NCBI RefSeq assembly: GCF_041260155.1
Contig: NC_091939.1
Location: 23,771,744-23,835,743 of the forward strand
Reading direction: 5' to 3'
DNA length: 64,000 nt
From: Ptychodera flava
Lineage: Eukaryota
A program made the position numbers and the translations under genes. Positions 21,341 to 42,339 of the stretch are shown here, in pieces. Within the stretch, counting starts at the first letter, position 1. Each line of letters begins with the position of its first letter. A model generated the notes under the pieces. It saw nothing but the letters and a program-made list of their open reading frames with translations. It was not told where the DNA came from and ran no database searches.

Positions 21341-21977
21341 TGTACGAACATGTACGCTCTGAAAAACCATGATTGGACCTATCCACAGCCGAGGCCTGGG
21401 TTGAGCCACAGTCGTATCCACAGGACTGTGCTTGAGCCATTGAGGTAGAAGTGTCACAGGTGCATGCCGTTAGGTTCGGCCTTCGGCCCCACGCTACGGG
21501 CTTCGATCCCGGGCCTTCGATTGACTATCCAAACAACGCTGCAAGCACCCGTGGAAGTATCTTGCACCAAGCGAGCGAGTCATACTGTTTAATACATACA
21601 TGTTGGTTAGCCCTGCGTACAGGTCTGTGTGTTCCCGGCTATATGGGCCTCCCACTGCACAGGCCTATACTACAGAGCACAGTCCCTCTATCCACTGTGT
21701 ACAGAGCTAGTTTCCAACCTCCGTGCTAAAAGTGCAAAACCTTGCTTAGACGTGGCCAGATGAAACGTCATCGATAATAAAAGAATTTCAGTCATTACAT
21801 TTTGGTTGAGTCATTCTCTCTTCATATCCTTGACGTCATGCTATTGAACGTGTACTTGAGGAGTCTATGCTGCATGCAAAAGAAAGAATGAGTACTCTGT
21901 GTTTACATGTGACATCATCAAGTATTGCATGTTGCCAATGCATTGTGGGGCATTTTTAAATGACGTTTCGCATTCTG

Positions 21978-21997
21978 ATTGGTTACGTGTATAAAAG
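21978..21997 (+). promoter_or_regulatory. MVP: Putative MVP core promoter: inverted CCAAT box (ATTGG, 21978-21982) followed by TATA box TATAAAAG (21990-21997)
   Basis: The sequence ctgATTGGttacgtgTATAAAAGctg lies about 30-40 bp upstream of a short exon-like segment. That segment ends in a strong donor (CACAG|GTAAGA at 22088/22089). The next acceptor, ttccacag|, precedes the MVP ATG exon at 24026. Confidence 0.5.
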
Positions 21998-22024
21998 CTG
22001 ACAGGCAATCTTTTGCTTACCTTG

Positions 22025-22088
22025 CAAGTTCACTGTGTGTGCATTGCATAGCAGAGGACCGGCGGCAGCCTTCGACATCGGCCCACAG
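22025..22088 (+). other. MVP: Putative non-coding first exon (5'UTR) of MVP; the TSS is approximate and the donor GT is at 22089
   Basis: The TATA box sits about 30 bp upstream and the consensus donor gtaaga is at 22089-22094. The exon carrying the ATG (24062) begins right after acceptor AG 24025-24026, with an in-frame TAA at 24029-24031 between acceptor and ATG. So the coding exon is not the first exon. Confidence 0.4.
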
Positions 22089-24061
22089 GTAAGACATCCC
22101 CAAATATCTAGTTTTCTGCTGACACTGCTCTCAGTTGGAGCTATGTCAGTGAATTCAACAGTAACCAGTAGCAGCTGATTGTACCCAGTTTACGATTTCC
22201 TGGTAGCCCCCGCGTCAATCTTGTTCTGCTGCTGCCCAGCTCTATATTGCTACCTCCCCGTGCTAGTGATGTTGAACCGGTGAGGTTTTGGAGGTACATA
22301 CGACGCCCTTTGCACTCGGTACCCCTTGCCCTTGCCATGTCGCCCCGTCACCAGCTGTCTGTGTGTCTGGATTACATGTTCCGAATTTCGAAACAGTGTT
22401 TCCGAAAGCGAAAATTATGAATTGCTCACACAGCAGCGTTCCGTTCTAGTCAAATATGGCAGCACCAACGTGACCAAGGCAGCTGTCAGCTCCACTGCAT
22501 TGCATTGCAGTGTCATGTGATGAACAAGGAAGTGGGAAATACGCGGCCGTAATCCATTCGACGATCCTTCTCTGCGCTCTTTAGCCTTGCCTTACACATT
22601 CGACCATTTTGCATTTTTGTCGACCCGCTGTAGAGGTAGCAGAGGCCTCTCGAGGAAAAATGTGACCAACAATAAAAGACTTTAGCCGGGTTTTTTTTTG
22701 GGGGGGGGGGCGTGGCGACTGCTTAGCATGTGTGTAAAACACCTGTTGCTACGGCACCCGGCGTCGTGAATAGAGAGACAAAATGATGAAACGAATGTGA
22801 AATCGCCAGGACTGCAAATGCTCTGAAAGTAGTCAAACCCTTTATGCTGACGCTGCTTGAAGCAATTTTGCTTTGCAAGCATAGCTTGTGATTGCGCAAC
22901 ATTTCAGAGGATGAATTACGGTGCCGTGACTCATCCAACCACTTTCTTATAAATATCATGCGGTCCCGGAGCAACTGACACTTGTAGGCTAGGCGCTGAA
23001 GTGCACCATTCATGAACGTACACTGCCTTTGTTACAAACATGGATGTTTAGCAGCCTAGTAGTAGAGCTGTAGGACTCTGCAGACCTGTATTGATTAACC
23101 AGAGGTTGTCAACAGTATTTTCTCCACTGCCAGGACATTGTGCAATTACAAAGTACTGATCTTTATAAGTAAGTGCTATTTTTCCTGGCTGTGCCGAACG
23201 GATCGCCTATTTCACTGTGATTTCATCATTAAGATAAGCTATCGGAAAGAATGGAGGTTTTGACAGGATTTTTTTACATTTTGTGTGGAAGCATTCTCAA
23301 TGCATTGGCAATCTATTTCCATATCTCTCTCCAGTGCTATACTTCTATGGAATATATGTACCAAAATGGAAAAAAGTTAAGAATCAGCCATTGATATTTG
23401 AGTGTTTTGACTTGATATTAGCTTGCAACATTTCGGCTTCAGTTGCCGTGCAATCTTTAGTGTCTGTAGACTCAACTTCCCATTTTCATTGAATCAGGGC
23501 CATGTTGATCACCAGGAAATATGACCTGTCATTTCTGCATCCTGACTCAGTAATCGTCACCGATGTGTGCACCCACTTCCACCTTTCTCAGTGGATGAGG
23601 CCCCCCAGGCTGCATTCGGAGTACATATGATAGAGCAGGAATAGAGGCTGACAGGATCAAATCTGATGAAGATTCTTCAAGTTTTGACTTGTAGGCTCAA
23701 TGCAGTAAAATGAGGGAAAAGAGAGTACTATCAGCTGATATCACTGCAACCTATCTGATAGCATACACAGCCACAACCACATATGCTATATACTGCAGTA
23801 CATTGTACACGTCACACTACGGTGAATTATTGCCCCATTCTTTCGTTTAACCCTTTCACTGCAATGGTTTGTCCTAAACCCATTGTTATCCATAGTAGTT
23901 ATGGACCTGGGTACAGGGAATAGGGATGAACAGGTTAAAAATGGTACTCTCAATGACAATCTGATCATTTTTCAATGGACAAGTCATCAGTAATTATTTT
24001 AATGATTCATTTTGTTTCTTCCACAGATTAAGTGCTTGAATTACCCTTCAATCAGACAGCC

Positions 24062-24216
24062 ATGGATCGTGATCGTTCGAGGGCACGTGCTGGTGGAAGC
24101 GATGAGAGCATCTATCGCATTCCACCATTCTACTACATCCATGTCTTGGACCAAAACACCAATGTAACAAGGGTTGTGATTGGTCCAAAGACCTACATCC
24201 GACAGGATAATGAAAG
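24062..24216 (+). CDS. MVP: Major vault protein, coding exon 1 (MDRDRS...[35 protein letters not shown], ends phase 2)
   Basis: The translation matches the vertebrate MVP N-terminus motif [35 protein letters not shown]. The ATG has an upstream in-frame stop, and the donor GTGAGA is at 24217. Confidence 0.9.
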
Positions 24217-27200
24217 GTGAGAATGCTTATTATACCACCATATTTTAAAAATCGCCAGCGCCAAACTTTTGCCATTGTTAATTGTTAGTCAGTAAAAATT
24301 TCATTGGCAGAGGAAAGTATTATGTTCGATTTACCAATTTACTCCCTAGGCTAGAGCCATAGGCAGAAAGCATGTATTACTGTTAAACTATAATATATGC
24401 AAATTTTCATGTAAGGAATTCGGCACATATATTCCAGGCAAACTAATCATGCAAGAATTTGCAACAAGTCTCTTCACTGCCAATAGCGCTAAAATATCAG
24501 CCACAACGCTGAAATTGTGTTTCGATCAGCTTGCATCATGCGATGGCAGGATGAGCAATAACCATGAAATTGTGCAGTTCCATTGGCAGCATTAAAGCCC
24601 CATTAGCTTTATCTTTTTGGGTTTCTTTTCAAGCTGGTTTGAAATCAAAAGCAACTTATATGTAAAAATGCTTACTGAAGTGTGACCATCGAACATTTTT
24701 CTAACATTGGCAATGCCAACTTACCAACAGTTAAATAATTTTCAATTTGCAAGTCATACTGGTATGTGGCCACCCTCCATGAGTGAGTTTGCAAAACCTG
24801 TGAACCACCGACTGAATCCATGCCACATTTTGAAATAGTCACATTGTAAAAGACAAGGAATCAAAAACTCAATCTCTAAAGATTGGACGTTATTATTCTT
24901 TTGGCAAAAAGATGCAGCTAACAGGGGCTTTAAAAAGTTGTACTGCAACAAAGGGAGTGTTGCCACTAGGGGGAGGGCCCTAGTGTCTATCAGGTATGAT
25001 GTGTCATCAGTTTGTCATTACCTCTTCTGGAATGATTCTGTTTGGTTATTTATTATGACCTGGAGCTTTTGTCCGATCTGGACACCTAGATAATTTTGAA
25101 AAGAACGTTCCAGTTTAGCTTTGTAATTTTCTTTGTGCCTGCTGGGGTTTCAAGGTTAAATTATAATAGTACAGAGTTGCTATGAAGAGTTATGTAACTA
25201 CACCTGTGTTAGGGCAAAGATGGCAACAAGGAATTGCTGAGTAAACATGTTCACATTTTCAACACAAACCATAGTCATCCTCTGCAATTCACAGTTCACT
25301 GTTGCTTTTTTGTGAGCTCGTTATCTCTTGCAATGATTATCAAAGCAAAAAATTTGCCAAAATTAAAAAAAAATATAATTTTGCTGGTTGCTCGTAGCAT
25401 GGTCTATTTTTTACATCCATGCTCATAGGTTATGCTAAATTTTGCCTGTTTGCCGTGACGTCATCAGTAAAGATCAGAAGTGAAAGTAATGTGTTCCTGA
25501 TTTGCATGACAAAGGGCTCAGCGCCCAGATGTTGATAGTTGCAACATTTGTTTGGTTTCCTCAAGAAAAAGCAAAAAAGAAACCCAGCCATGATGTGCAA
25601 TTTTTGGCCTGCTTGTTTTAATGACTCTACTTATCAGTATTCATTTTGATTTAAAAGTGTTTCACATCTCTTAATTTCATAGCAATATCTGTACCATTTT
25701 CAGTCATGTCTACTTGTAGCTTTTGGACATTCATGTCAGACCAGCTGTTGGTGGAAGCTAGTGCCCTCCAATTTTGTCATTGACCAGTTTTGTACTGTAG
25801 TTGAGAAATATAATACCCACCAGTATTATCTGCATTTAAAAAAAGCACAGGACAGTGTGAGAAAGCAAATTTGTGACCTCGTTGTTCTCCATTGTGGTCC
25901 CATGAATCAATACTTTGCTGACCCATAGCGTTTCCCTCGGTACTTGAAATATACCCACGATTCAATCCATTGTGCACACATATTTGGCTGAATTGTGTAG
26001 GCAGCTGCATGCTGACATGTACAGTGTATAGAGATATTTTCAATTTTGGAATCACAGATTTTGATTGAACCAAAATTTGCAGGTAGTGGGTTGTGTAGGC
26101 TTAGGTCTCATAGAAAATTGTATTGAAAGGAAAATGTGAGAAACAGGAAATTTCTCCCTCATATTGTGGGTTTTGAAACTGATTTTATTGCAATAAAATT
26201 TACAAATGAGCTCATCACAGAGAATGACCACCACATGAAATTAAACCTTTGTAAACACAGGTTATCAAGGCATTTGGAAAATTTGGACACTGTCATCCTG
26301 TGATAATATTTTCAACAAGCAATTGTCATGATTTTAAAAGCTTTGTACATGAGTCATAAACCTAATATAGAACAGAGATATCCAGAGTAGAAATCAAGCA
26401 AACATGATCGATACATTAGTTTATTGGCATCATTTTGATATGCAGATACCATCAGAGCTGACATCATCAGAACCTGTAAATTTATGCCAAGATTTGTCAA
26501 AATTATCATTGAGCTATGGATGTCAGTGAAAATGTTTTGAGCAAAAAAAATTTCCACATGGTTTCCCATAAATAGTGATTTACAAATTCAACATTCTGTG
26601 GTGAATTTTTTCACTCAATGAATTATGTCTTAGTATATTACATTTGAAATGACTGACAAAAAGTTCTTCTCTAAATCTTGAGGTACCATTCAAATCAACC
26701 GTGAAGGACAATGCCTTGTGAATTGATCTCTCAAACATACGTTGCATACTTTAAATTACAGCCCGATACTCGTTCAATTGCTGAGTTGTGAAAGAAAAGC
26801 AATCCTGGTAAATGAATATTCACTGGTATTCTTAGTTCACCCTCCGGTCCTGAACTCTGTTTTGTACGTCAAGTCAATATACCAGGGTGTTCATTGTACC
26901 ATATGTGTTATGCAATCATCTACTTCAATAACCCAACTGCACGTCTTTCCGTATTGACAAGTCACCCCATTTCTCTTTCAATACGACAGACTATGACTCT
27001 TCATAGGGCGGTTGATCAATTCTTGTTTGTTCTACATTGTGCGTCAAGCATTTACTTTGTTACAAATTTTTGACTCGAAATGGTTGCCTTTTATGAACAG
27101 TGATTGAAACATGATTTATACAGATATTATAAGAAAGAATCTATGGGTAACAGTTATGCCTCATTTGCATATAATGGATGTTACACCTTACCAATTGTTA

Positions 27201-27789
27201 TGGAAATGAGTGTGGCTTTGTGAATGTATGGAGGTAAAATTTATGTCCGTGGTGAATGTACTGCAAGGTGCCCTCTGATAAAGGGTTGCTTAGCCCTAAA
27301 TTTACCCTGTGGAGAATAACACCACATCATAATAGTATGACTTAAAAGATGTGTCCCGGGTCTTTCTATTGTTTGTACTCCAGAAAACGAGGTATTTTCA
27401 TGCATTTATTGAAAATTGTAGCCCTGAAATGCTGTAGCATTTGTATGGCCCTTGTTTGTCCAAAACACCTTGAAGTGCTTTTCAAATTATTGGTAAAATA
27501 CACAAGAAATGAGCCAACGTTTGATCCATGAGAATTGTATCTGGTCAAATGAATTCTCAGAATTGTATCATGTACGTGTTTTTTGAAAAAGAACTACATG
27601 TACACACTGTATGGGTTTTTATTGCATACAGCACTGACCAAGATCGGCATTAGTCTTGGCTTGCAGTGGGATGCAATGATACAAAAGGTATCCTGGTATT
27701 ATCATTGTCCAGGTACTTTTGAACTGTAAAGCTTATTTTCTTGCTGTTTGATTGACTTTGTAAAATTTCCAATTATAAAATTCACCCAG

Positions 27790-28109
27790 GGTCATTTTTG
27801 GTCCAGAGAAGATGATTACAGTTCCACCACGCCATTACTGCATCGTTGAGAACCCTGCAATCCGTGGTGAAGATGGCAGCATTACGCTGGACCAGCACGG
27901 CCAAGTCAGGCTGAACCATGCCGACCAGGAGATCCGCCTCGCTCAGGAACCGTTCCCCCTCTACTCTGGTGAAGTTCTTAAACAGGTGGTGTCTCCACTG
28001 AAAGTCGTGACCGCCAACACAGCTCTCAGACTTAGGGCAATCCTTGACTTTGAAGACGATACCGGTACCAAGAAAGTGGCTGGCGATGAGTGGCTGTTTG
28101 AAGGACCAG
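27790..28109 (+). CDS. MVP: MVP coding exon 2 ([30 protein letters not shown]...[14 protein letters not shown])
   Basis: The acceptor is cacccag| and the donor GTATAC is at 28110. The reading frame joins exon 1 (ag+g = Arg) and matches human [17 protein letters not shown]...[13 protein letters not shown]. Confidence 0.9.
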
Positions 28110-30547
28110 GTATACTGTTATTTACTGTTCCCCTCATCACAGACATCCTTTCATCCCTAGGTGATTGTTTATAGGTCCAACCATACCTTGAAACATATTG
28201 GTTTGTGCCAGTCATAAAGGAGTATAATCCTTTCCAGTCGTTTCTGTACAGGTGGAACCACTGATTAAAATGCAAATAATTACATCACATATAATATTGT
28301 TTTGGTGATAGGAAGGAGCTCACTTCTTGCAACACGAGATTATGCTATTACTTGCTTGTAAAAGACTCAATCAATGTGGAGTTTTTGGTGATAAATTACA
28401 CCACATTTTGAGTAAAAAGAACCCAATATTTCTGGCTGGTCTTCAAAAGTAAAGTGAGTTTGTGAAATATTCATTGCCTCGTGCAGCACAAAGCTTCATC
28501 AAACCTTTAAACAACTGTCTCATGTAGACTTTTACCAACCCACAGAGAATCGAGGAGTGAACAATTTGCAGATGTGTAGCTACCTTGTTTAGATATTTCC
28601 AAAAAAATATGCTTTAGACTGTATACACCAAGCAGAATTGGATTTCTGGTATACTGACATCAGTACATCAGACTCCAGTTCTAGCCTAGAGGGCAGAGCT
28701 ATCAACATCTGTCAATAAAATTGCTTTGTAGATTTGTATAGGGTGAGAACTATGCTTACTTACATTTGGTAGTTTATTATACAGATAGTGATAATCTTAA
28801 ATTTTGGTGTCTTGCTTCCTGTGCCAATTACGTTTTTGTCTAAATTTTGAGACAGCAAAATAGGGGACAAAATTCTGATTTATTCGCTAAATTGATAAAG
28901 TTGAGAAAAGAAACATGTTCAAGTCATTGAATAAACCTCAACCTACAATAGTTGGATAAATGCATTCAAATTACCGGGTAACGTATGACTTATCAAATCT
29001 TTGACCTTTCAGTTCTCAAATCATCACACCAGTTTGTCCTCTAACCCAGATTGACTGAGATACTGACACGCCTTTGACCAGTGAAAGTTTTCCCATGACC
29101 AAAGAAAATTTAATGTTTTCAGGTACCATGGGGGGAGGGGGGGGGGAATATGGGGTACATGTATAGGGCTCACTCAAAGAAATTTCTGAAAGAATCAAAA
29201 TTTAATCAAAGAGGTCAAGAAATGTCATCCATCAAAGGTAACACTGAATGTTATATTTTTACAAGAAATTTGTCAGATCACAGAAATGTTGTGTTGACAT
29301 TTTGCTGAAAAGATGTTTACATAAAAGCATTTATGAAAATTATTGTCAAATATTTCCTTGTTTACATTAGTGATATGGTCTGATGTGGTCTTTGTTAGGT
29401 AAATGTCAGATATTTTTTTAATCAAAGACTATATGTACAACTGTTTTAGATGCTATTTCATTCAAATAATTGCGTGTTAATATTTGAAGAACATTCTCTG
29501 GTGTAGAGCTTTGCACATGGCAACATAGGAATCCACGGTACCATTTGATGCATACCTGGATTTTTTAAGAACGTAATTTGAATGAAGAGTCATGAACAGA
29601 TATCTGCAGCCATGAAATCTTGGAATGTCATGTTGGAAAAAATGTGACAACTTGTACAATGTAATATTTTGACAGAGAAATTTTAAAATATTGCGCGTTT
29701 GACAGATTGGTTTTGATAAAATGTGGATAGGATTAGATTGTTGGTAGTTGCAACAATGAACTTTGGCTTGAACTGGTTACCAAACAGGCAAAAAATACTT
29801 ATCGCGATGACTATCATGTGGAATGTATTAATTGTAACCAACAAACTTCTCAGTTTCATAGCCATTATTGTATGGTGGTGCTGGTCTGCCTTTGGGAAGT
29901 CTGTTGCTCTTCAAATGGCTTTGGGAATTAATTATGAACATGAGTTTCGATTCGGTGTCACAACTCTGTATGTCTTATAGATTCATTGTCTGTACAATGT
30001 AAACAATTAGCTTGGGTATCACCACACATTTCAATGTCACCGACTCATTGATTAGTTACAATAAACCAGCATGGTGCAACTCTTTCTGGAATGATATCTG
30101 AACAGTTGATTGCACTTAATCTACAGTTAGCAGACAGAAAATTAGTAGACATTTTGTCCATTAAAACTGTCTCATGTACAGAGTTGTGGCACCGAATTGA
30201 AACCCACCGTAGTTACGCTTTAATATTTTATACATGTATCATAAAAATTTAGTAACACGATGAACAGGAAAAAAATTAACTCACGTATATGCATTGTACA
30301 ATGTACATAAATCAAATAATTATTCAGTTTGCCATTTGAGTCAACTATGTAATTAACTAAGTAAAGTAAGATTTTCCTAATATAAGATTTATGTCTATAC
30401 ACATAATACAGGGTTCACTTGAAGAAATTTCTAGAAACTCCAAATTGACACAGAAGAGTTGACAAATGTTTAGAGTACACCACACCATTACATTCATTGA
30501 TTTTACTGTACACCTAACCTTGACTTCATTGCTTTTTTCCCCAACAG

Positions 30548-30774
30548 GTACCTATATTCCAAAGAAAGAGGTGGTCGTGGATGAAACGATCCGTGCTACA
30601 ATTATCAGACCCAACCAGGCTATCAAGCTGCGTGCCAGGAAGGAAACCCTTGCCAGGGACGACACTCCCAGAGTGACAGGAGAAGAGTGGCTTGTCAAGA
30701 AGGTTGGTGCCTACTTGCCCGGTGCCTATGAGGAAGTTATCGATGTGGTTGACGCCTACGTCCTCACAGATAAG
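30548..30774 (+). CDS. MVP: MVP coding exon 3 ([33 protein letters not shown]...[31 protein letters not shown])
   Basis: The acceptor is ccaacag| and the donor GTAAGT is at 30775. The translation matches human [32 protein letters not shown]...TGEEWLV. Confidence 0.9.
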
Positions 30775-31373
30775 GTAAGTGTTCATTTCATACTTTATGT
30801 CATCCGGAAATGACCACATTTTAGCCCCGACCGTGCACCTCATGCTGAATAGTGTGTCAACATTGTGGCAGTGGCACTATTATCTCTCATCAGACCTTCC
30901 TCGTGTGTTTGCCCCTTCCACCCCTACCCACCCCTCTACTCCCCCATTTGCCAATGAAGATGTCCGAGTTTGGCGTATAAAACTATGGGATCTGGCCAAA
31001 CGTGATGGTGGGTTTGGGCCAATGTGACATATGGTGCATGTGGAACGATTCATGGTTCAAGGGCCCAAGATACATGTATGGTTTAGAATATCTACACAAT
31101 GTTTGCGAGATGCTATCATATATCACTTCTGTGGGCACAGGCCTAACTCCCTGTGGAAAATAGAGACCATATGTCCATGATGGTGTATGGGTTAAGGTAG
31201 CACCATAGTACTTATGGAATAATGTATGATTTGAGGGAAATATACTATAGAGAAGAATATTGTCTCAGACAAATGGGCCACTGCCTCTGTCATTTCTGGT
31301 AGCCTATGTTCGACTCCCTCCCTCCTCCCCCCATAAATACATATATAGACTAAGTTATTTTTTAAATTTACAG

Positions 31374-31610
31374 AAAGCACTTCACTTGCGAGCAACCCGT
31401 ACTTTCAAAGACCAGGGCGACAAACTCCGCAGGAATGGAGAGGAATGGCTGATCAAAGTAGAGGACGCCGAGACGTATATACCCAACGTCTACGAAGAAG
31501 TCGTCGGTGTGGTTCCAATCACGACGCTGACAAACAGACAATACTGCGTGATTTTAGATCCAGTAGGACAAGACGGCAAGCCACAGCTGGGACAAAAGAA
31601 ATTAGTCAAG
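31374..31610 (+). CDS. MVP: MVP coding exon 4 ([79 protein letters not shown])
   Basis: The acceptor is tttaaatttacag| and the donor GTAAGT is at 31611. The translation matches human [27 protein letters not shown]...[25 protein letters not shown]. Confidence 0.9.
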
Positions 31611-32194
31611 GTAAGTGAAAAAAGAGGAACACTGTGTAGTTGCATTGATAATTGTACCTGTCATTCTAGAGAGATGTTAGTGTATTGGTTGCGCAGGTCA
31701 GAGATTTTGAAACTATACGTAAGGTGAACCTCAGATATTGGAGTAATCAGGTTAAATAAAATAGCTATAATATGGAGCAGCAACAATGCTTACTCTGTGT
31801 TTGGAGGGATGTTCCAAGAAGTTGTTCATCAGAAGGATGATAATTCGCGTGAAAGATTGTATTGTATTGCTCCAAGAACCAGGATTTCTTTGAAGTTTTA
31901 ACATACATTTGTACAGGTGCCTGTATACCAAGCAATGCACAATTAAAGATGGTGTAATATTCTTTATTGATGAATCGTTGTTTCAGTTTTACAGAACTTT
32001 GAATTTGGGTTTAAACTATCATTAATGTGATCTTTTGAGAAATAAACATTTTTCTTTGAAAGTTTGAAAGGTCACAAATCAACGTGAAATTTGCATTATT
32101 GGGAATGATGGTAATTTTTCGCAGCACATATTTGTTATTATGGCTCACAATTACGATTGATTTAAATTATTTGGTGTGTTTCTTGTCATTTTAG

Positions 32195-32314
32195 GGTGAG
32201 AAATCATTCTTCTTGCAACCTGGTGAGAAGCTAGAGAAAGGAATTCAGAACGTCTATGTACTTGGAGAAGACGAAGGTGTCATCTTGAAGGCCAACGAAG
32301 CGTTCAAAGATGAA
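32195..32314 (+). CDS. MVP: MVP coding exon 5 ([40 protein letters not shown])
   Basis: The acceptor is ttgtcattttag| and the donor GTAGGT is at 32315. The translation matches human [33 protein letters not shown]. Confidence 0.85.
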
Positions 32315-32894
32315 GTAGGTCGAGTGTTATTGTCTTAGGACATCAAAACTAAATACTATCTGTGATGTTGTGTTTCTGATGCAGCTATATATGGAAAATA
32401 TCTTCAAGAAAATAAAATTAAACTTGAACTGTTTTGGCCACCCAGTCACAAAAATAGCTATAAATGTTGATTGACTCATACAAAAAACAGACCAGCATGT
32501 AGTGTAATTAGCATCAATGATACACTTGCAGTGTTTCATCAGAGCAAGTTCTCTTCTGTACACTTGCAGTGTTCCAAATCGAGCCTTACTTAATGTTCCA
32601 AATAGAGCCTTACCTTAATATGCCGGCACATTTTATCTTGTGTGTGCCTGTCTTTACCTGTGATTATACTATGCCTTTATATTGTATCACAAGTCCATGC
32701 AATGAAGTATGAAGTCATTTTACCTAGATCAAGCATAAGGGTACAATATTACTGTATGCACACGTTAGGTCATATAAAGTCGCAATTCTTTAGATTTATG
32801 CGACACCAGGGAACACACGTATGATGTGAATGTAAAAAAGAAATTCGAATTGCAAGTGCAAGTTGCTTAATGAGAACTAATTCTCAATATCAAG

Positions 32895-33044
32895 GGTGTT
32901 GACAGAAAGCCCGGGGATCGTTGGATGATCCGTGGCCCAGCAGAGTACGTCCCCCCAGTGGAAGTGGACGTGGTCACCAAGAGGAAAGCCATCCCACTGG
33001 ATGAAAACGAAGGTATCTATGTCAGAGATACCAAGACAGGAAAG
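32895..33044 (+). CDS. MVP: MVP coding exon 6 ([50 protein letters not shown])
   Basis: The acceptor is aatatcaag| and the donor GTAGGG is at 33045. The translation matches human [45 protein letters not shown]. Confidence 0.9.
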
Positions 33045-33243
33045 GTAGGGCGAGAGTCTTTGTTGAGTGTCCAGCACTCTTATTTTCCTCAAATTCTATC
33101 AAAAGTATCCTCCAGATTTTAAGATATATATTCTTCTACCTGATGCTGCTATGTTTGCCAGAAGCAGGGAAAATTTTCATTTCCTAAATTCATATGGAAA
33201 TGGCGTTGCACACAGCTGATGTGTATTCTCAAAAAAATCTCAA

Positions 33244-33251
<8 letters not shown>

Positions 33252-33342
<91 letters not shown>

Positions 33343-33346
33343 ATAC
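33252..33346. repeat. (AT)n microsatellite (about 47 units) in MVP intron 6
   Basis: The repeat is directly visible in the sequence. Confidence 0.95.
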
Positions 33347-33868
33347 GAACGTACATACATATTATTATAGCCCAAATATGGGACTATGTGCGTGAGGGTA
33401 GGTGACCATTTGCTTTCCTGACGTCAGGAAGGCAAATGGTCTCCTGCCTCATGGTACCATTGTCCCTTGCTTGGGCTATAATGTTTTCATGTGCCTCTCT
33501 TACATAGTTTTCACTCCATATTTTAGGTTTACATACAAATGACAATCATATGCTTTCTGTCCATGTTATACAAAAATCTGTTGAAAAAATAGTGTATTGA
33601 TATTTTTAAATCAATGTTATGTGGTTTATCAAATTTTTTACACATAATTTTGTAAAAACAGTATTTTCTATTTAAAACATGTAATGTGATCAGTTTTAAA
33701 TCTTGAAGTTGTCAAGTTGAAAATAGTTCCGGTTCACTTTCAGTCAAATGATGACTGCAGCCTGTGAAATCATCAACAAGTTACCATTGAATCCTATGGA
33801 GTGTGTGACGTTTGATAACTGAGGCATGAAATAAATATATAAATGACATCTTCTGTCCCCATTCTCAG

Positions 33869-34107
33869 GTCAGAGCAGTTACCGGTGAGACGTACATGCT
33901 GACCCAAGACGAGGAACTGTGGGCCAAAGAGTTGCCCCCAGCAGTTGAAAATCTCCTTCAGAGCCATAAGGACCCTTTGGCTGATCGCAGTGATCGTTCA
34001 GGGGCTGGTGGTCCCGTCAGACAGAGAGAGAAGACCAAAGTTGTGACGTTCCGGGTTCCTCACAACGCTACTGTACAAATCTATGACTACAAAGAAAAGA
34101 AAGCAAG
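33869..34107 (+). CDS. MVP: MVP coding exon 7 ([40 protein letters not shown]...[23 protein letters not shown])
   Basis: The acceptor is ccattctcag| and the donor GTACGG is at 34108. The translation matches human [30 protein letters not shown]...[24 protein letters not shown]. Confidence 0.9.
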
Positions 34108-34730
34108 GTACGGCTCGGCTGGCAGAAAGGTCCATCATGGTGTTCAAGAGGAAATCTCTCTTCCACTGTATATCCAAAACATCTCCCATTCTAGTTATAT
34201 AGGGTGTTGACATGGTGTAGTATTTCGCCATCAGACATGGCATATTTGAAGAAAATACTCATGAAGACATTAAGACATTATCTATCAGTTCGTCATTTCA
34301 TAAAAACTTCATGAAATGCTTGTTATAATTTACTCATAGATGTATGTACTAGGTCGATCACATAAAAATCAGTGTATTAATTTTCAGCTGCACACAAGAT
34401 ATTGAGGGGCTATTCCCAAATGTTTAGATGGTTTCCTATCAAACAAGCTTCTCTTCTATGAAGGAAACAACACCATGCGCAAATTCTCCCCATTCCTAGC
34501 TGTCTCCTGGTGCCAATATGTAACCCATGTGAGAAATTTTTGAAGACCCTTAACCCTTTCACCACCATGGTTTTACCCAAACCCATTGTTATTAATGGTG
34601 ATCTTGGACCTGTTTACAGGGAATGGGGGGTGAACAGGTTAAATTGAGTGGTGAACTTCAAGCATTGAACATTAGGATAAGATAGATTTGATAATTTTCA
34701 TAATGTTTTCTTTGCTATATTTCCCAACAG

Positions 34731-34928
34731 GGTTGTATACGGCCCTGAGCTGGTGATGCTTGGACCCGATGAACAGTTCACCCAGCTTTCGTTGTCCGGT
34801 GGCAAACCAAAGAGACCAAATGTTATCAAATCGCTGGTCTTGCTGCTCGGTCCTGACTTCTGTACAGACATCATTACCATAGAAACGGCTGATCATGCCC
34901 GGCTTCAACTGCAGCTTTCGTACAACTG
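34731..34928 (+). CDS. MVP: MVP coding exon 8 ([67 protein letters not shown])
   Basis: The acceptor is tttcccaacag| and the donor GTAAGT is at 34929. The translation matches human [66 protein letters not shown]. Confidence 0.9.
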
Positions 34929-35415
34929 GTAAGTTTTAAGAAATATGTACTTACCCAACTTTACAGCGTACAAAAGATTTGTTAACTCTGTACAAAAAAC
35001 TGAGTTTCACATCGGCTTTAGAAAAAAGGAAATGATTGCCCATAATAAGAAGTGGGGAAATTACAGTTCTAATATCTACCGAGACCAATGCACAACAGAC
35101 ATGACACATGATAATGATAATGTATGACTAATATTTAATACTTTATTGGCTTCTGTAATGTAAAATTATTTTTTCCCCGATTTAATGAGACATGTATAAA
35201 AAACTTTTTGATAACTTCAATAAAAAAAATATTAAAAAAGTTTGAAGAAATAATACTGACTCTGGGGCGATGTCAATGGGATGGGTTTTGAAAATTCACT
35301 CAAAGTGAAAATTAAAAGGTAACCTCACAGTGTCCTAGAACCATATATGAACAAAAGCATGTTTACACAATTACACCAGAACTGACCGTTGATGGTTTTG
35401 GTGATATTTTTCCAG

Positions 35416-35560
35416 GCATTTTGAAGTGAAAGACAAGACAGACAAACAGGAAGCCGCTAAACTGTTCAGCGTTCCTGATTTCGTCGGCGATGCATGCAAA
35501 GCCATCGCATCCCGAGTCAGAGGTGCCGTGGCTAGTGTACAGTTTGATGATTTCCACAAG
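35416..35560 (+). CDS. MVP: MVP coding exon 9 ([49 protein letters not shown])
   Basis: The acceptor is tatttttccag| and the donor GTGAGA is at 35561. The translation is near-identical to human [48 protein letters not shown]. Confidence 0.92.
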
Positions 35561-36994
35561 GTGAGAATGGTGTAAAATTTGCCTTTTTTATTGCAGCAGA
35601 AGTATATGTCGCTTCCTATGTTTACTTGAGAAATAGCACCATCATGATATGGGCTGATTCGCTCTGTCATCATGGAAGTCGTTCTGTGTGAAACTTACAT
35701 CCCCTGCCACTGGCTGAGAGACTGTGCACTCATAAAATGGTCACACACTTAAACATCATTCTAGCAATAGAACAATTTCGCTGTCAATACCATCTTTTTG
35801 GTAGAACCATTGCAAGTTTATGAGTGGCTGTGTGAATTTACAACTAGAAAGCATTTGCAAGCAAAAGCGAAGTTCCAGAGACCAGAGCAGCGGAAGAAGC
35901 AAGAGAATGTGTGACAAAGATAGGTGCAGAATGAAAGGTGCTTTGGATTTTAATATTCAGGGCTGATAGCAGTAAACACCATAATACAACTAAAAGCAAG
36001 GCAGTCCGGGGAATTACAGTACACAGATTACAAATGCCTACATGTATGGTAAAAACGCAACAGATACATACGGGGCGACAACGCACGGAAATGTTTATCA
36101 GACGACATTCTCGCGAGCCAGAGCAATAATTTTCGCTCCGCTGACCTACGCAAAAATCAATCGCTTGACGGGTAGCGCTGAGTTGTTGCCGTAAAGAGGC
36201 GTGTCATTTACAACGATGAGAAGGAAACATCGGACCTAGGCCGTTGAAATTGAGCCACATGCATTTTCATTTGATTAAAAGCACAGACTAAAACAATTTT
36301 CATTGCTATGTCGCTGTTTTCACAAGATACTGACCATTTGATCTTGGAAAGTTGAGTTGCTTTTACGTGCAGCCAACGCATGCCGGTGCATGACAGACAG
36401 TACGTTCACTATGAATGCCTAGCTCTGCATGGCAGGGCTGTGTGTTTACCGGCGTTAAACGGCCTCCCACCACAGCCCCGCAGATTGATGTAGGAAAAAA
36501 CGCTGGTGGCTCCTCAGAAATACGGCGGGCAGTTTCTCCGCCAAAACAGCCGATTTTGAGTCCAAATTTTGCATTGATCATCGTTTTCGAGCACACCCAC
36601 CTCGCCTAGGTACACGATGTGCCCAGCCGCGCTTGTAAACTTAGGGAAAGGCTAATTTTCACTCTCTGGGCGAGCGAGGCGATTGACACGCCGCCATGTT
36701 GTCTCATGAGCATTCGGGCGAAACAGTATAGCGCCACGTACGGCGAGTATTTAGAGAAAAATAAAATCAAAAAGCAACAAAAACAAAGCGAAAGAAAGCT
36801 AGAATTATTAATAACTGAACGCAATATGATAGTTGAGCAATGCCAAATAAAAAATAAATAAATAAACAAACAAGAAATGCCCGTAAAACCCGTCCGAGCT
36901 GAGCGATGACGTCATAAGCGTGTCGCAATGCATTCTGGGTAATTATGGTAAAATTTGTGTATAGCATGTTCTATGGTAGTAAAACCGGAAATAG

Positions 36995-37025
<31 letters not shown>

Positions 37026-37030
37026 AGGAA
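36995..37030. repeat. (GAAA)n microsatellite in MVP intron 9
   Basis: The repeat is directly visible in the sequence. Confidence 0.9.
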
Positions 37031-37384
37031 AGTGAGCAAAAACTAACAGTTCCAGAGCTGGTCTCTGGAACTAATTACCCTTTGCACCCTGATCCCCTGG
37101 TACTCTATGACGTCATCGGACATTTGTGTCCGAGCCGGGTTCAAAGGGTAACCTAGTATGTTATGCAGTATCTGTATATATATATGTATTCAAGCTACTA
37201 AATGCAATACTATAATCCCCTTTTCAAAGTGTAACCTGATGAATTCTCTCGGCTCCAAAAGATAAGAAATTTTCTGCATACAGTAAGTCATATATTCCAT
37301 GAAGCCTCAGCAAAAGAGTCAGAGCTCTCATCTCAATGCGTGAATCATTATTTTGAAAAAGTGTGATTTGTCCCCATATTTCAG

Positions 37385-37596
37385 AATTCAGCCAAGATCA
37401 TCCGTGCCTCAGTGTTCGGTCTGGATGAGAGACAGAAGGTGCGCGACCGCTTCATGTTCCCCCAGAACAACCTGATCATCACCAGCATTGACATCCAGTC
37501 CGTGGAGCCAGTGGACCAACGTACCAGAGATGCCCTGATGAAGTCCGTGCAGCTGGCCATTGAAATCACCACAAACTCACAGGAGGCTGCTGCCAA
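37385..37596 (+). CDS. MVP: MVP coding exon 10 ([71 protein letters not shown])
   Basis: The acceptor is ccccatatttcag| and the donor GTGAGT is at 37597. The translation matches human NSARIIRTAVFGFE...[49 protein letters not shown]. Confidence 0.92.
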
Positions 37597-38252
37597 GTGA
37601 GTACCCCCCCAAGCAATCTAATGGAATTTCCCTGAACAACAAAAAATATATTGACACGTGTAGTCTATACGTCACATGTTAGGGAATGTAATGTTAAAGA
37701 GAGATTATCATGGCTCAAGTAAAAGGCCCGCTGTAATTATCATCAGTTTCGTTGAAGCATTAATGTCACCTAATTTCATTCATACTTCAATATATCAACA
37801 TAAATTAGATTTATTTTCGTCACTTTTCAAGAAGGAAAGTAGCAAAATGTCTGCCACCTTTATTATGGTAACAAAATATTGTTACAGTTGATTGCGTCAA
37901 TAAGTCTTCTAACACATCTTGAATAAGAGAAAAAACCATCAATTTCCCAGACAGTTTTATGATATTGAAGCATACACTGTGGGATAGGATCTAAATATTT
38001 GTTTGCAACAAATGTATTCACAATGAAATGAAACCAGAAGAATGTGATGATGTTCACTTTCTAAGCAATGAAAGAAATTGCAATGTTGAAAAAGTTGTGC
38101 ATGATTTTACAGCATTTTAAGGAAAAGATTCATAATCAACAAAAGTAAAAGCTGCAAGTCTGAGGAATGATTCTCTCACTCTCACTTGTCTAAAACATGT
38201 CAAACATGATCGACAAACCTTGACTCCATTCTCTATTTCTGTACCACCACAG

Positions 38253-38496
38253 ACATGAGGCTGAACGTCTTGAGCAAGAAGCCAAAGGTCGTCTTGAGCG
38301 CCAGAAAATCCTGGACGAGGCTGAAGCCGAGAGAGCCAGAAAGGAACTGCTTGAATTGCAGGCAAACAGTGCTGCTGTGGAGAGTACCGGTCAGGCCAAG
38401 GCTGAGGCCCAGAGTCGTGCCGAGGCGGCCAGAATCGAGGGTGAGGCAGCCGTCCAACAGGCCAAGCTGAAAGCAGAAGCTGCTAGAATTGAAGCA
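38253..38496 (+). CDS. MVP: MVP coding exon 11 ([82 protein letters not shown])
   Basis: The acceptor is gtaccaccacag| and the donor GTAAGT is at 38497. The translation matches human [80 protein letters not shown]. Confidence 0.92.
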
Positions 38497-38813
38497 GTAA
38501 GTAGTCTTATATCCTTATATGGTCATCTTTGGTTTTCTGTATTTTTCTGATCTGGATGAAACAGTAACTATGGATACCACTCTCTTGTTGTAGTAGATTG
38601 ACTTGGAGTAAACTTTGAATTCTGATTTGGAAAATAAATGAACAGGTGAATATCGTGGGTGATTTCTAGTTTTAAAATGCAAAATTAAAGAAAATATGAC
38701 TTAAGTATTAGGTACTTCCCATTTGACAAACCTGTTTTCCAAAATATTTGTTTCTCATTTCATGCGACTGTTTCTCCCCTGAAATAATTTAAATCATCTT
38801 TTTTCTCCGCAAG

Positions 38814-39002
38814 GAATCAGAATTGGAGAGGCTTTCCCGTGCTCGTGAGAGCGAGACTAAGTACTTGAGCGAGCAGAACACTCTTGAAATTACCAAGGTC
38901 AAGGAAATGGCTGATATTGAAGTGGAGAAATTCAGGAACATGGTCAGCGCCATCGGAGCTGACACAATCAGAGCTATTGCAGTCTCTGGACCCGAGATGC
39001 AG
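38814..39002 (+). CDS. MVP: MVP coding exon 12 (ESELERLSRARESETKYLSEQNTLEITKVKEMADIEVEKFRNMVSAIGADTIRAIAVSGPEMQ)
   Basis: The acceptor is ttttctccgcaag| and the donor GTATGT is at 39003. The translation matches human ...[31 protein letters not shown]. Confidence 0.88.
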
Positions 39003-39621
39003 GTATGTGATTCTGTTTCATGTTATCTTCTGTCAAATTTTCATATTATTCATCTGAATCTCGATAATTCACAACACCACCCAATTCTGTGATAACTATA
39101 ATGATCACCATAGAGAATCATAAAAGCAGTGGCGAGTTCAGTATGAATTGTTCTTCGTCTGCCGTTAGATTTCTCGTACGGTTTTGTTGGTATTTATCTC
39201 TGTTCGCCAAGTATGAAAATGTACAGACTGGTTTCGCATGAGAAGGATATCATATTATGGGACGAGAAACAAAAAGAATTCATACACACAGGAGTCAAGT
39301 CAATGGAGATTCTTAGCATGGGCTTGACTGTTGAAGTTGTTCATTCACAATTCTAGCATAATGCATTGACACATTCCTAGTTAGGTAACTCATTTTATTT
39401 CGTAGAAACAGTAAGATTAATGGAAAGACACAGAAACAATTGGACTCTTCAGGGGATTAATAATTCCAACAGATTGAAAGAAGTATTTTGATCAGAGATG
39501 AAGATGTAATCAGCAGAAAAATGTGAGAGAATATTTTACTGGTTACCACCACTCATTCCAATCAGTACGTACTACATATGTGGCGTGATTTACTCAATTT
39601 GTTGCGCACGTTTCCCTACAG

Positions 39622-39777
39622 GTGAAACTGCTGCAGTCTCTGGGATTGAAGACGACCCTCATCACGGATGGCAGCAGCCCCATTAACCTGTTCAACACGG
39701 CCCATGGTCTGATAGGAGCCAATGCTTTGCAAGCCCCTGGCAAACCTCACTCCACCGCTGACAGCGATGATGACTGA
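39622..39777 (+). CDS. MVP: MVP terminal coding exon 13 ([51 protein letters not shown], stop TGA 39775-39777)
   Basis: The acceptor is tttccctacag|. The translation matches human [32 protein letters not shown]. The summed CDS is 2589 nt, giving 863 aa. Confidence 0.9.
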
Positions 39778-40069
39778 AAAATTCACGGTGCAAGCATGCA
39801 TCAGAAAAAAAAAATCTGCTTGGAATTTCACAAGCTCACTTTGATGTGTGCCTTCATTCATGCAAATTATGTATCACTTTTTGTCCTATTCTGTTTTGTT
39901 AAGGTGCACATAGCTGTAAATAGCCTCGTAAAAAGTATATATTTTGGTAGTTTTACATATCAAGGACATCACAATCAAAAGGTGTTGTCTAAACTTGAAA
40001 ACTCTGCAATATTTGGTGCACTTACTGAGTATATGTAATGTATATGATGAGTATATTTAGATTTCTGTA

Positions 40070-40075
40070 ATTAAA
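40070..40075 (+). other. MVP: Candidate polyadenylation signal ATTAAA for MVP, about 300 nt after the stop
   Basis: The variant hexamer ATTAAA sits in the AT-rich 3' flank (ctgtaATTAAAcatc). No canonical AATAAA lies closer to the stop. This is weak evidence. Confidence 0.25.
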
Positions 40076-42049
40076 CATCAAATCTCTACAAATTTGCAAT
40101 TTGAAAGACTTTAATCAAGTTTTTTGACGATTTCTCTTCATTCTATACCATAGTGCTTTGCCTGATATGCATATTTATATTAGGTTTTCTTGCAGTTGGT
40201 ATAATTGTGTGGCATATGTATTAATTATTTTGTATCACTCATATAATCACATTACCTATAGAACGTAATGTACCACACAAAACTTATGATTTGTAAGTTC
40301 TTTGTAGAAATATATTTCAAACATAATGAAATTTGAAAGGTTCTGTTCAGAGTTGTGTGATGTGTGCAGAAGTGTGTATTGAAGGAAATGTTGCAAACTA
40401 ACCTGGAATGGTGGCTAGCTTGACAAATGTCATTTTTTCAAAGACTGCAATTGTGTCTGTCGCCATAGAAACTGCTTAATCTTCCATGCCCTCACCAGTG
40501 TGATAGAAGCTCATTATCATCATTGCATCAGAACATCAAAATGTGCTCTTATGTGTGAATTTAAAGCTCTAAAACCCCACACACTATGTTTTTGCATTTG
40601 AGGTCAGGGAACAAAATGAAGTTGAATATATCGTGTGATTGACAATTGAATCTTCAGATGACGTTGCTTTCAGCCTTTGATGCAAACCACTCGGACATCA
40701 TAGCAAACTGTTATCCAGGGTATTCTAACAATTTCACAAATGCAAGAATTGAGAAAACTGTTCAACTAGAATTGTCTTTTTCTGAAGGAAAAAAATTGAT
40801 TACTCTTGATATTGATAAATTTGTTTTAACTAGGTGTTGCCATGGTATTTGACGTAATAATCTTAGTTTATCGAAGATGTTCCTCCCATATGTAAACCTA
40901 AATGAATTGTTAGGTGTTTATCTACGCGGTTACATGCCCCTTTACTTGTGAGTAATGGTATCTTTTTTGTTTCACTTAGAAAAATGTAGTTATGTTTACT
41001 TAGTTTTTTTATAGGCTGGACCTCATGACTAGAATGACATGTGGCAGCCGACCCATCTCCAGCATTTACATTCATCATTTTAGCAAACAACAGAAAGGTG
41101 ACTTTCCTCCTTTTCTTGTTGTACTTGATATTTTTCATCATGCACTTCTGCAGAGGATAAAAAAGAGTAGTCAGTTTTCGCCCCATCTTTGTAAACTTTC
41201 AGTATTGTATACCCGTGGTGTTCTGCTAGGCTAATTTACATATGAATGTGTGTGTCAATCGTGGCTAACCAATCACCGCTAGAAATTTTGCATAGAATAT
41301 TAGTATGCATTGAACTCACTGAATATGCAGATTTCGCAACAAGAAAACAGATAAATTCTGATTCAATCGAGATTTTGTGAAATTGTGATTTCATTCTTCA
41401 CCTGCGAACACGGAAAACATATATAGTTTGCACCAATCATTGCTTCTGTGGTACTTGCGCATATCTGTGCTTTCGTATAATCACCTTGTCACTGATTTTA
41501 ACTCTCACAAAAATTTGGCCTTTATTGGCAGAATTTTACGAGGATAACAGGTTCAAGTGAATGAATGTAAACACTTCCCAGTAATTTGAAAACAGGTCTT
41601 AATTCACATATCCAAGTTTCATAGTATAGTATTAGTAATTGTTATCAATTAAAAAGTCGAAGTTAAGTGCCCCCCCCCCCAATCTTCTTTTTTAAAAACC
41701 AGTATGTTTAAAAGGAGATATGCTCGTAGGTTTGGAATTTCTTACTGAGATTCTATCAACAACTAACTTTGATTACCAATTTTGATAAATTTTCATGGAC
41801 CGTAGATCTCTGTCCAAAATAATGTCAAACATGTACCGACTATTAACAGCTTTGTTTGATATAATTGTTATAAAAAATTGTATATTTAAGAATTGGCAAT
41901 GTACAAATAAAAGGTGTCTCTTGTTTGTTTGGGTTGGATAGTTTGTTTTGATATGTAAATCCTTTGTGTACTTATATATTATGGAACTTTTAGGTTTCAT
42001 AGGTGAATAAAATGTTATGAAAACAAATATATATTAATCTTTTGATATT

Positions 42050-42185: not shown

Positions 42186-42339
42186 AAATTACATAGCATA
42201 ACATAACATTTACCCAAAGTTGAAATCAATCCTATAGGGCTATATGTCAGTCTTATTTTGTGATCAGAACTGGTAAATTCGCACAATTAACCCGATATAT
42301 ATTGACCCGAAATTCTTCATTTATATTTCATGTTTGGCA

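What the first reader, a model, noticed from the sequence alone, without database searches (positions are those of the whole stretch)
21978..39777. Complete major vault protein (MVP) gene with a fully resolvable 13-coding-exon structure
Every coding exon can be placed from GT-AG sites, and the reading frame stays consistent across all 12 coding introns. The exon junctions reproduce the vertebrate MVP sequence block by block. The protein runs from the [13 protein letters not shown] repeat-domain start to the [18 protein letters not shown]-terminus. The model gives 863 aa and ends ...[15 protein letters not shown] is absent from several model invertebrates, so a cleanly structured invertebrate-type MVP locus with its promoter is a useful reference for vault biology.
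Basis: partly seen in the sequence, partly recalled or inferred. Interest (0 to 1): 0.5.

Follow-up and report, generated by a model that had tools for sequence, protein, structure and literature searches.

The report
Acorn-worm major vault protein gene

Summary
On the + strand, 13 coding exons (24062-39777) are joined by 12 GT-AG introns. They give one open 863-aa frame ending ...[12 protein letters not shown].

The protein is residue-for-residue identical to RefSeq XP_070572747.1/XP_070572748.1, "major vault protein-like [Ptychodera flava]". It is 91% identical to Glandiceps MVP and 87% to Saccoglossus MVP. It passes all five Pfam MVP models and aligns collinearly (E=0) with solved human and rat vault structures.

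All 12 intron positions and phases, and all 11 internal exon lengths, are identical in the two other hemichordate loci. Most are shared with sea urchin, limpet and sea anemone. No MVP-like sequence lies in the large introns, so no exon was missed. Codon substitution patterns show strong purifying selection.

A consensus donor lies about 95 nt further on. The same module occurs once upstream of MVP in both other hemichordates, which supports a short non-coding exon 1. Without RNA data this remains an inference.

Verdict: a known gene, correctly modelled. Interest is low.

The parts
21961..21983 (+). Putative core-promoter module: CRE-like TGACGT, 9 nt, then inverted CCAAT/Y-box CTGATTGGT
   Evidence: It occurs once in the 64-kb window, with 0.00 expected from shuffles. 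The same pattern occurs once in the Glandiceps locus (L001 8693-8715) and once in the Saccoglossus locus (L002 8902-8924), on the gene strand 1.1-2.1 kb upstream of the ATG. TGACGT and TGATTGGT are invariant across the three hemichordates; with starfish added, only TGATTGGT stays invariant. No binding or function was tested.
21990..21997 (+). TATA box (TATAAAAG)
   Evidence: Read from the sequence. Saccoglossus has ATATAAAAC at the matching place. The motif alone is not rare: 7 in the window against 3.8 expected.
22014..22089 (+). Putative non-coding exon 1; the 5' end is inferred, the 3' end is CAG|GTAAGA
   Evidence: The 13-mer TGCTTACCTTGCA (22014-22026) is identical in Glandiceps (L001 8759-8771). 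A consensus donor lies at 22090, the only AGGTAAG/AGGTGAG/AGGTAAA site in the 6 kb upstream of the ATG. The candidate exon contains no ATG. There is no RNA evidence.
22090..24026 (+). Inferred 5'-UTR intron (1937 nt)
   Evidence: It runs from GT at 22090 to a pyrimidine tract and AG at 24025-24026. All three hemichordates have a pyrimidine tract plus AG 25-35 nt before the ATG. It contains a 94-nt interspersed repeat at 23847-23939.
24027..24216 (+). Coding exon 1: inferred 5'-UTR 24027-24061, ATG at 24062 in the context ACAGCCATGG, 155 coding nt, ends in phase 2
   Evidence: The start codon is the one used by the RefSeq protein, since the products are identical.
27790..28109 (+). Coding exon 2 (320 nt)
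   Evidence: Same length and phase in L001 and L002.
30548..30774 (+). Coding exon 3 (227 nt)
31374..31610 (+). Coding exon 4 (237 nt)
32195..32314 (+). Coding exon 5 (120 nt)
   Evidence: The donor choice was settled by the orthologue alignment.
32895..33044 (+). Coding exon 6 (150 nt)
33869..34107 (+). Coding exon 7 (239 nt)
34731..34928 (+). Coding exon 8 (198 nt)
35416..35560 (+). Coding exon 9 (145 nt)
37385..37596 (+). Coding exon 10 (212 nt)
38253..38496 (+). Coding exon 11 (244 nt; cap-helix)
38814..39002 (+). Coding exon 12 (189 nt)
39622..39777 (+). Coding exon 13 (153 coding nt plus TGA at 39775-39777)
39778..40095 (+). Inferred 3'-UTR up to the first poly(A) signal variant (ATTAAA at 40070-40075)
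   Evidence: Motif scan only. The next signals lie more than 1.8 kb further on. The true 3' end is unknown.

Best explanation
The region is the single, intact major vault protein (MVP) gene of the enteropneust hemichordate Ptychodera flava.

**Gene structure.** It probably has a short non-coding first exon followed by 13 coding exons. Transcription most likely starts about 25-30 nt downstream of a TATA box that is preceded by a CRE-like site and an inverted CCAAT/Y-box. Splicing of 12 GT-AG coding introns gives an 863-aa protein.

**Protein and inferred function.** The protein has the full MVP layout: the N-terminal beta-sheet repeat domains, an SPFH-like shoulder domain, a long cap-helix and a cap-ring tail. 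By homology with rat and human MVP, 78 copies would assemble into the hollow vault particle, two 39-mer halves joined at the R1 waist.

**What is shown and what is inferred.** Shown: exon structure, protein identity, domain content, purifying selection and the conserved upstream motif module. Inferred: transcription start, exon 1, 3' end, particle assembly and cellular role.
For: - GT-AG exon model with an open 863-aa frame.
- The exact sequence is in RefSeq as XP_070572747.1/XP_070572748.1, major vault protein-like [Ptychodera flava].
- 2959 homologues at E<=1e-50. The best are Glandiceps (91%) and Saccoglossus (87%) MVP, followed by echinoderm, sponge, mollusc, amphioxus and cnidarian MVPs at 75-82%.
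- Pfam Vault (4 stretches), Vault_2 (2), Vault_3, Vault_4 and MVP_shoulder all score far above their cut-offs.
- Residues 13-848 align collinearly with solved vault chains of 861-893 aa at E=0, with only three short indels (4, 2 and 10 aa).
- In that alignment, the residues a human vault cryo-EM study names as waist and R1 contacts are all conserved: Arg9, Gln21, Asn22, Gln38, Asp39, Asn40 and Arg42 correspond to model R19, Q31, N32, Q48, D49, N50 and R52 (PMC13347060; alignment).
- The 12 intron positions and phases and the 11 internal exon lengths are identical in Glandiceps and Saccoglossus. Ten to eleven positions are shared with Diadema, Lottia and Nematostella.
- Only the 13 coding exons are conserved at the DNA level.
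- Codon differences against Glandiceps and Saccoglossus are 49-56% at third positions and 8-10% at positions 1+2.
- Promoter module and exon 1. The human MVP core promoter is also reported to hold an inverted CCAAT (Y-box) (PMC7916137).
Against: - No transcript data were available, so splice junctions rest on sequence logic, on the orthologous annotations and on the RefSeq product. Those are themselves pipeline predictions, and I did not see what evidence they rest on.
- The promoter motif pattern was derived from the same three sequences in which it was then counted, so its uniqueness statistic is partly circular.
- CCAAT and TATA boxes are common promoter elements, and here they lie unusually close together (about 5 nt apart).
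- No vault RNA gene or other vault component lies in the window.
- Particle formation in this animal has not been observed here.
Confidence: 0.96

Rival explanations
1. The coding model is right, but the promoter and non-coding exon 1 are not at 21961-22089. Transcription would start elsewhere: just upstream of the ATG exon, or at a more distant or alternative first exon.
For: There is no RNA evidence. blastn finds no conserved non-coding block. RefSeq lists two accessions for the same protein, which may mean two transcript variants differing in the 5'-UTR. TATAAAAG alone is not rare.
Against: The CRE-like plus Y-box module is unique in the window and recurs once upstream of MVP in two other hemichordates. 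In each case a GT donor follows 70-110 nt downstream. A strong acceptor lies 35 nt before the ATG in all three species. A 13-mer at the expected start site is identical in Glandiceps.
Confidence: 0.2
2. The gene has additional, alternatively used coding exons in the long introns (1, 2 or 9), giving longer isoforms as annotated in amphioxus.
For: Branchiostoma has annotated MVP isoforms of 868-943 aa. Introns 1, 2 and 9 are larger here (3573, 2438 and 1824 nt) than in the other hemichordates.
Against: No MVP-like HSP lies outside the 13 exons, even at E<=10, with 123 MVP queries that include the long isoforms. No Pfam domain is found in intron ORFs. No intronic DNA conservation is seen with the other hemichordates. 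Both RefSeq accessions carry the 863-aa product.
Confidence: 0.06
3. The locus is a non-functional copy (pseudogene) or a diverged paralogue that does not build vaults.
For: Nothing positive. Expression and assembly simply were not tested.
Against: The frame is open across 13 exons and the splice sites are canonical. The protein is 91% and 87% identical to the other hemichordates' MVPs although synonymous sites are near saturation. All domains and the waist-contact residues are conserved. There are no retrocopy features, since the introns are retained.
Confidence: 0.02

Closest known systems
RefSeq XP_070572747.1 / XP_070572748.1, major vault protein-like [Ptychodera flava]
   Same: Identical 863-aa sequence from first to last residue. 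This is the same gene.
   Different: Nothing at the protein level. I could not see the record's UTRs or transcript variants.
MVP-like genes of Glandiceps talaboti (P0001, locus L001) and Saccoglossus kowalevskii (P0002, locus L002)
   Same: 91% and 87% protein identity. They have 13 coding exons with identical internal lengths and intron phases, and the same upstream TGACGT-N9-TGATTGGT module.
   Different: Their introns are shorter: the CDS spans 11.1 and 9.7 kb against 15.7 kb here. The N- and C-terminal tails differ by a few residues. No gene neighbours are shared within +/-10 kb.
Vertebrate MVP (human 893 aa, rat 861 aa; solved vaults such as 4V60/4HL8, 7PKZ, 9Z4W)
   Same: Collinear alignment over residues 13-848 at E=0, covering the repeat domains, shoulder, cap-helix and cap-ring. 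The R1 waist-contact residues are conserved. The human promoter is also reported to have an inverted CCAAT/Y-box (PMC7916137).
   Different: The hemichordate protein has three short deletions relative to the vertebrate chain (4, 2 and 10 aa) and a different, short acidic C-terminal tail. The human gene is reported to have 15 exons (PMC7916137), against the 14 inferred here (1 non-coding plus 13 coding).
MVP genes of sea urchin (Diadema, L003), limpet (Lottia, L004) and sea anemone (Nematostella, L005)
   Same: 78-82% protein identity for Diadema and Lottia in the alignment and 77% for Nematostella in the search. Ten to eleven of the 12 intron positions are shared, with the same phase.
   Different: They have 14, 13 and 17 coding exons. 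The introns at alignment columns 117 and 276 are present in Diadema and Lottia (276 also in Nematostella) but absent from all three hemichordates.

Membership tests
Major vault protein (MVP) | [quoted passage not shown] | tested here: met
   Pfam Vault (4 stretches), Vault_2 (2), Vault_4 (1) and Vault_3 (1) are all above their cut-offs. Residues 13-522 align collinearly with the repeat region of solved MVP chains, including 3GF5 (R1-R7, E 2.6e-167). Internal repeats also show up as off-diagonal tblastn hits between exons 2-6. R1 has no separate Pfam hit listed, but it aligns residue for residue with solved chains.
Major vault protein (MVP) | SPFH-like shoulder domain after the repeats | tested here: met
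   PF11978 MVP_shoulder, E 5.6e-55, residues 523-641, covering profile positions 1-118 of 118.
Major vault protein (MVP) | Long C-terminal cap-helix (coiled coil) and cap-ring | tested here: met
   Residues about 642-848 align without gaps to the solved chain 9z4w_A. There is a separate hit to the cap fragment 9z5n_B (query 747-849, E 5.8e-32).
Major vault protein (MVP) | Conserved residues that join the two half-vaults at the R1 waist (human Asn22, Gln38, Asp39, Asn40, Arg42) | tested here: met
   The residues are named in PMC13347060. In the alignment they correspond to N32, Q48, D49, N50 and R52 of the model, all identical.
Major vault protein (MVP) | Orthology: same gene structure as MVP genes of related animals, under purifying selection | tested here: met
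   Intron positions and phases are identical in two other hemichordates and mostly shared across Metazoa. Third-position divergence is 49-56% against 8-10% at positions 1+2.
Major vault protein (MVP) | Self-assembly into the 78-mer barrel-shaped vault particle | not testable with these tools
   This needs expression and electron microscopy. Here it is inferred only from homology.
Vault ribonucleoprotein locus (MVP together with vault RNA or minor vault proteins) | A vault RNA gene, or TEP1 or PARP4, next to MVP | tested here: not met
   No Rfam Vault match was found at the gathering threshold or at E<=1 in the 64-kb window. The neighbours identified are an otopetrin-like ORF and tRNA genes. 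Linkage is not required for MVP membership. The Rfam model may also miss divergent invertebrate vault RNAs.

The most novel reading that the evidence does not exclude
The compact CRE-like plus inverted-CCAAT (Y-box) plus TATA module in front of a short non-coding exon 1 may be an ancient MVP core promoter. It would be conserved across ambulacrarians (three acorn worms and a starfish) and be homologous to the Y-box of the human MVP promoter. That would imply that NF-Y/YB-1-type control of vault expression predates vertebrates.
Probability: 0.3. Interest if true: 0.3.

Novelty: already known. Interest (0 to 1): 0.1.

Why it matters

Biologically the gene is a routine orthologue that is already in RefSeq. 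Two small additions come out of the check:
- The MVP exon-intron structure is very old. Ten to eleven of the 12 introns are shared from sea anemone to acorn worm, and hemichordates have lost two introns.
- A short conserved promoter module marks the likely transcription start. It could guide reporter constructs or expression studies of vaults in a non-vertebrate deuterostome.

Neither addition changes what is known about vault function.

Tried and rejected
- **Vault RNA or other structured RNAs in or near the gene.** Rfam at the gathering threshold and at E<=1 gave only two tRNA genes and low-scoring miRNA-like hits on simple palindromes.
- **Missed or alternative exons.** A permissive tblastn with 123 MVPs gave nothing outside the 13 exons. 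Pfam on ten ORFs, eight in the coding introns and two in the inferred 5'-UTR intron, gave nothing credible.
- **Conserved non-coding DNA by blastn against the Glandiceps and Saccoglossus loci.** Only the coding exons matched. The promoter module was found only by motif search.
- **Microsynteny.** Translated ORFs from the flanks of the Glandiceps and Saccoglossus loci have no match in the window.
- **Retrieving the window's own public record with gene calls.** P0121 and the otopetrin ORF were not on record.
- **Amphioxus loci for the intron and promoter comparisons.** Not on record.
- **CpG-island test for the promoter.** CpG observed/expected at 21750-22750 is 0.62-0.86, against a window mean of 0.80, so there is no island.
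- **The 272-aa ORF at 60038-60853 (-).** No Pfam or PDB match.
- **Structure prediction.** Not run, because a collinear E=0 alignment to solved vault structures already answers the domain question.
Full report
**1. Observation**

Open stretches on the + strand between 24.0 and 39.8 kb carry unmistakable MVP peptide blocks. I placed each block and resolved every junction by GT/AG and reading phase. An exact spliced-mapping script then recovered the same structure.

The 13 coding exons are 24062-24216, 27790-28109, 30548-30774, 31374-31610, 32195-32314, 32895-33044, 33869-34107, 34731-34928, 35416-35560, 37385-37596, 38253-38496, 38814-39002 and 39622-39777. The 12 introns measure 3573, 2438, 599, 584, 580, 824, 623, 487, 1824, 656, 317 and 619 nt, and all are GT-AG.

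The product is 863 aa. Only the exon 5/6 junction allowed other GT/AG pairs, one of which also gives 863 aa. The orthologue alignment settles it: KDE|[10 protein letters not shown].

**2. Identity**

- A search of 5.8 billion proteins returns 2959 hits at E<=1e-50. Wherever a source gives a functional name among the 120 listed, it is major vault protein.
- The best hits are Glandiceps talaboti (91%) and Saccoglossus kowalevskii (87%), so the window comes from an enteropneust hemichordate.
- An exact-sequence look-up shows the 863-aa model is already in NCBI RefSeq as XP_070572747.1/XP_070572748.1, "major vault protein-like [Ptychodera flava]", on a 44-Mb contig.
- Pfam finds Vault (4 stretches), Vault_2 (2), Vault_4, Vault_3 and MVP_shoulder, all well above their curated cut-offs.
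- Residues 13-848 align collinearly at E=0 with solved vault chains of 861-893 aa. The only indels are three short ones of 4, 2 and 10 aa.
- A recent human vault cryo-EM paper lists the residues that hold the two half-vaults together at the waist: Asn22, Gln38, Asp39, Asn40 and Arg42, plus Arg9:Gln21 (PMC13347060). All are identical in the alignment.

**3. Independent test of the exon model**

I fetched the MVP loci of Glandiceps (L001) and Saccoglossus (L002) and mapped their annotated proteins exactly onto the DNA.

- Both have 13 coding exons.
- The 11 internal exon lengths (320, 227, 237, 120, 150, 239, 198, 145, 212, 244, 189 nt) and all 12 intron phases are identical to the window.
- On a joint protein alignment, all 12 intron positions coincide in the three hemichordates. 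Ten to eleven of them are shared, with the same phase, with a sea urchin (Diadema, 14 coding exons), a limpet (Lottia, 13) and a sea anemone (Nematostella, 17).
- The hemichordates lack two introns. The one at alignment column 117 is present in Diadema and Lottia. The one at column 276 is present in Diadema, Lottia and Nematostella. This points to lineage-specific intron loss.
- blastn between the loci matches only the 13 coding exons, at 73-87% identity.
- Against Glandiceps and Saccoglossus, 49-56% of third codon positions differ but only 8-10% of first and second positions. That is strong purifying selection on an expressed protein, not a pseudogene.

**4. Missed exons**

- The model aligns to both hemichordate orthologues with no internal gap.
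- tblastn with all 123 retrieved MVPs, including the long amphioxus and sea-cucumber isoforms, at E<=10 gives no hit better than E=0.09 outside the 13 exons anywhere in the 64 kb.
- ORFs in the coding introns and the inferred 5'-UTR intron have no credible Pfam match.
- The larger introns hold only non-conserved sequence, a few simple repeats and a short interspersed repeat.

**5. The 5' end**

The sequence there reads TGACGTTTCGCATTCTGATTGGTTACGTGTATAAAAG (21961-21997). That is a CRE-like hexamer, an inverted CCAAT box in the Y-box form CTGATTGGYYA, and a TATA box.

- CTGATTGGYYA occurs once in the window, with 0.10 expected.
- The combined pattern TGACGT-N(5-12)-TGATTGGT also occurs once, with 0.00 expected.
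- The same pattern occurs exactly once in the Glandiceps locus and once in the Saccoglossus locus, on the gene strand, 1.3 and 1.1 kb upstream of the ATG.
- In all three species a GT donor follows 70-110 nt downstream: window CAG|GTAAGA at 22090, L001 at 8820, L002 at 8992.
- Each species has a pyrimidine tract and AG 25-35 nt before the ATG.
- A 13-mer at the expected start site (TGCTTACCTTGCA, 22014-22026) is identical in Glandiceps.
- A starfish (Patiria, L007) has CTGATTGGTCC followed by a GTAAGT donor about 3 kb upstream of its ATG.
- The human MVP core promoter is reported to contain an inverted CCAAT/Y-box (PMC7916137).

Synonymous sites between these species are near saturation, so this conservation is meaningful. 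I therefore regard a short non-coding exon 1 (about 22014-22089) and a 1937-nt 5'-UTR intron as likely.

Three cautions apply. The pattern was derived from the sequences in which it was counted. CCAAT and TATA elements are common. No RNA data were available. There is also no CpG island at this site.

**6. The 3' end and surroundings**

The first poly(A)-signal variant (ATTAAA) lies 293 nt downstream, and the next lies more than 1.8 kb on. The true end is unknown.

No vault RNA or other curated RNA family lies in or near the gene. No other vault protein gene was recognised in the window. The flanks share no detectable genes with the flanks of the Glandiceps or Saccoglossus loci.

**7. Mechanism**

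The protein has the full MVP layout, and this is shown by the tests above. By homology with the solved rat and human particles (PMC13347060, PMC7916137), 39 chains pack side by side through the cap-helix bundle and shoulder to form a half-shell, and two halves join through R1. Assembly and cellular role in Ptychodera are inferred and were not tested.

**8. Verdict**

The gene is an ordinary, highly conserved orthologue whose exact protein model is already public, so I rate its novelty as "already known" and its interest as low (0.1).

The statement that vaults are missing from Drosophila, C. elegans, yeast and Arabidopsis matches the literature (PMC11219742). Many invertebrate MVP loci are nevertheless already annotated, so this one adds little as a reference.

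The only mildly new points are the deep conservation of intron positions, with two hemichordate-specific losses, and the conserved CRE/Y-box promoter module.

Noticed in passing
window 53908-54025 (-) and 63526-63643 (-): Two copies of an intron-containing tRNA gene with anticodon UAU (tRNA-Ile) and a 45-nt intron. Each scores 46.6 bits against Rfam tRNA. The copies are 96% identical over 136 nt, and the similarity ends just outside the gene, so these are gene copies and not a SINE. ARAGORN, run in bacterial mode, missed both.
   Followed up: partly
window 48338-50569 (+), first ATG at 48398: An uninterrupted 744-codon open frame in the most GC-rich part of the window (about 50% GC). It matches Pfam Otopetrin (E 7.8e-39), so it is an apparently intronless otopetrin-like proton-channel gene about 8.6 kb downstream of MVP. 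The exact product is not on record in the contig index.
   Followed up: partly
window 56015-57709: A complex repeat block. A 51-bp minisatellite (7.7 copies, 93% match) lies at 57262-57660. Two long self-complementary stretches (palindromes) lie at 56134-56644 and 56644-57246, at 84-85% arm identity. An inverted copy of the repeat unit lies at 56015-56140. CpG observed/expected is high here (1.39). It may be a foldback-type element, but I did not identify it.
   Followed up: partly
window 23847-23939 and 34550-34643: A 94-nt interspersed repeat (81% identity) occurs once in the inferred 5'-UTR intron and once in coding intron 7 of MVP. It is probably a short non-autonomous element.
   Followed up: no
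window 8926-9230, 18643-18950, 42050-42192 (-), 52134-52321, 63757-64000 (-): At least five copies, 72-81% identical, of an interspersed repeat of about 150-310 nt are scattered on both strands outside the MVP gene. The family was not identified.
   Followed up: no
window 33252-33345, 33364-33482 and 36995-37032: Simple sequence inside MVP introns. An (AT)47 microsatellite sits next to a 119-nt palindrome in intron 6, and an (AGAA)9.5 repeat sits in intron 9. A similar AT-rich palindrome at 45050-45202 produces spurious weak miRNA-family hits.
   Followed up: no
window 60038-60853 (-) and 61792-62145 (-): A 272-codon open frame with hydrophobic stretches at its C-terminal end, and a 118-codon open frame upstream of it on the same strand. 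Neither has a Pfam match, and the longer one has no PDB sequence match. They may be exons of an unidentified minus-strand gene.
   Followed up: partly
L001-L005 compared with window 24062-39777: MVP intron positions are very old, and hemichordates have lost two introns (alignment columns 117 and 276) that sea urchin and limpet retain. Diadema lacks the phase-1 intron at column 158. Lottia lacks those at columns 313 and 819. Nematostella has several extra introns.
   Followed up: yes
L001 1-6431 and 27872-31056; L002 1-4366; window flanks: Gene neighbours of MVP differ among the three acorn worms. In Glandiceps they are an astacin/CUB gene and a glycosyltransferase, in Saccoglossus a WD40 gene, and in Ptychodera an otopetrin-like gene and tRNA-Ile genes. 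There is no local synteny.
   Followed up: partly
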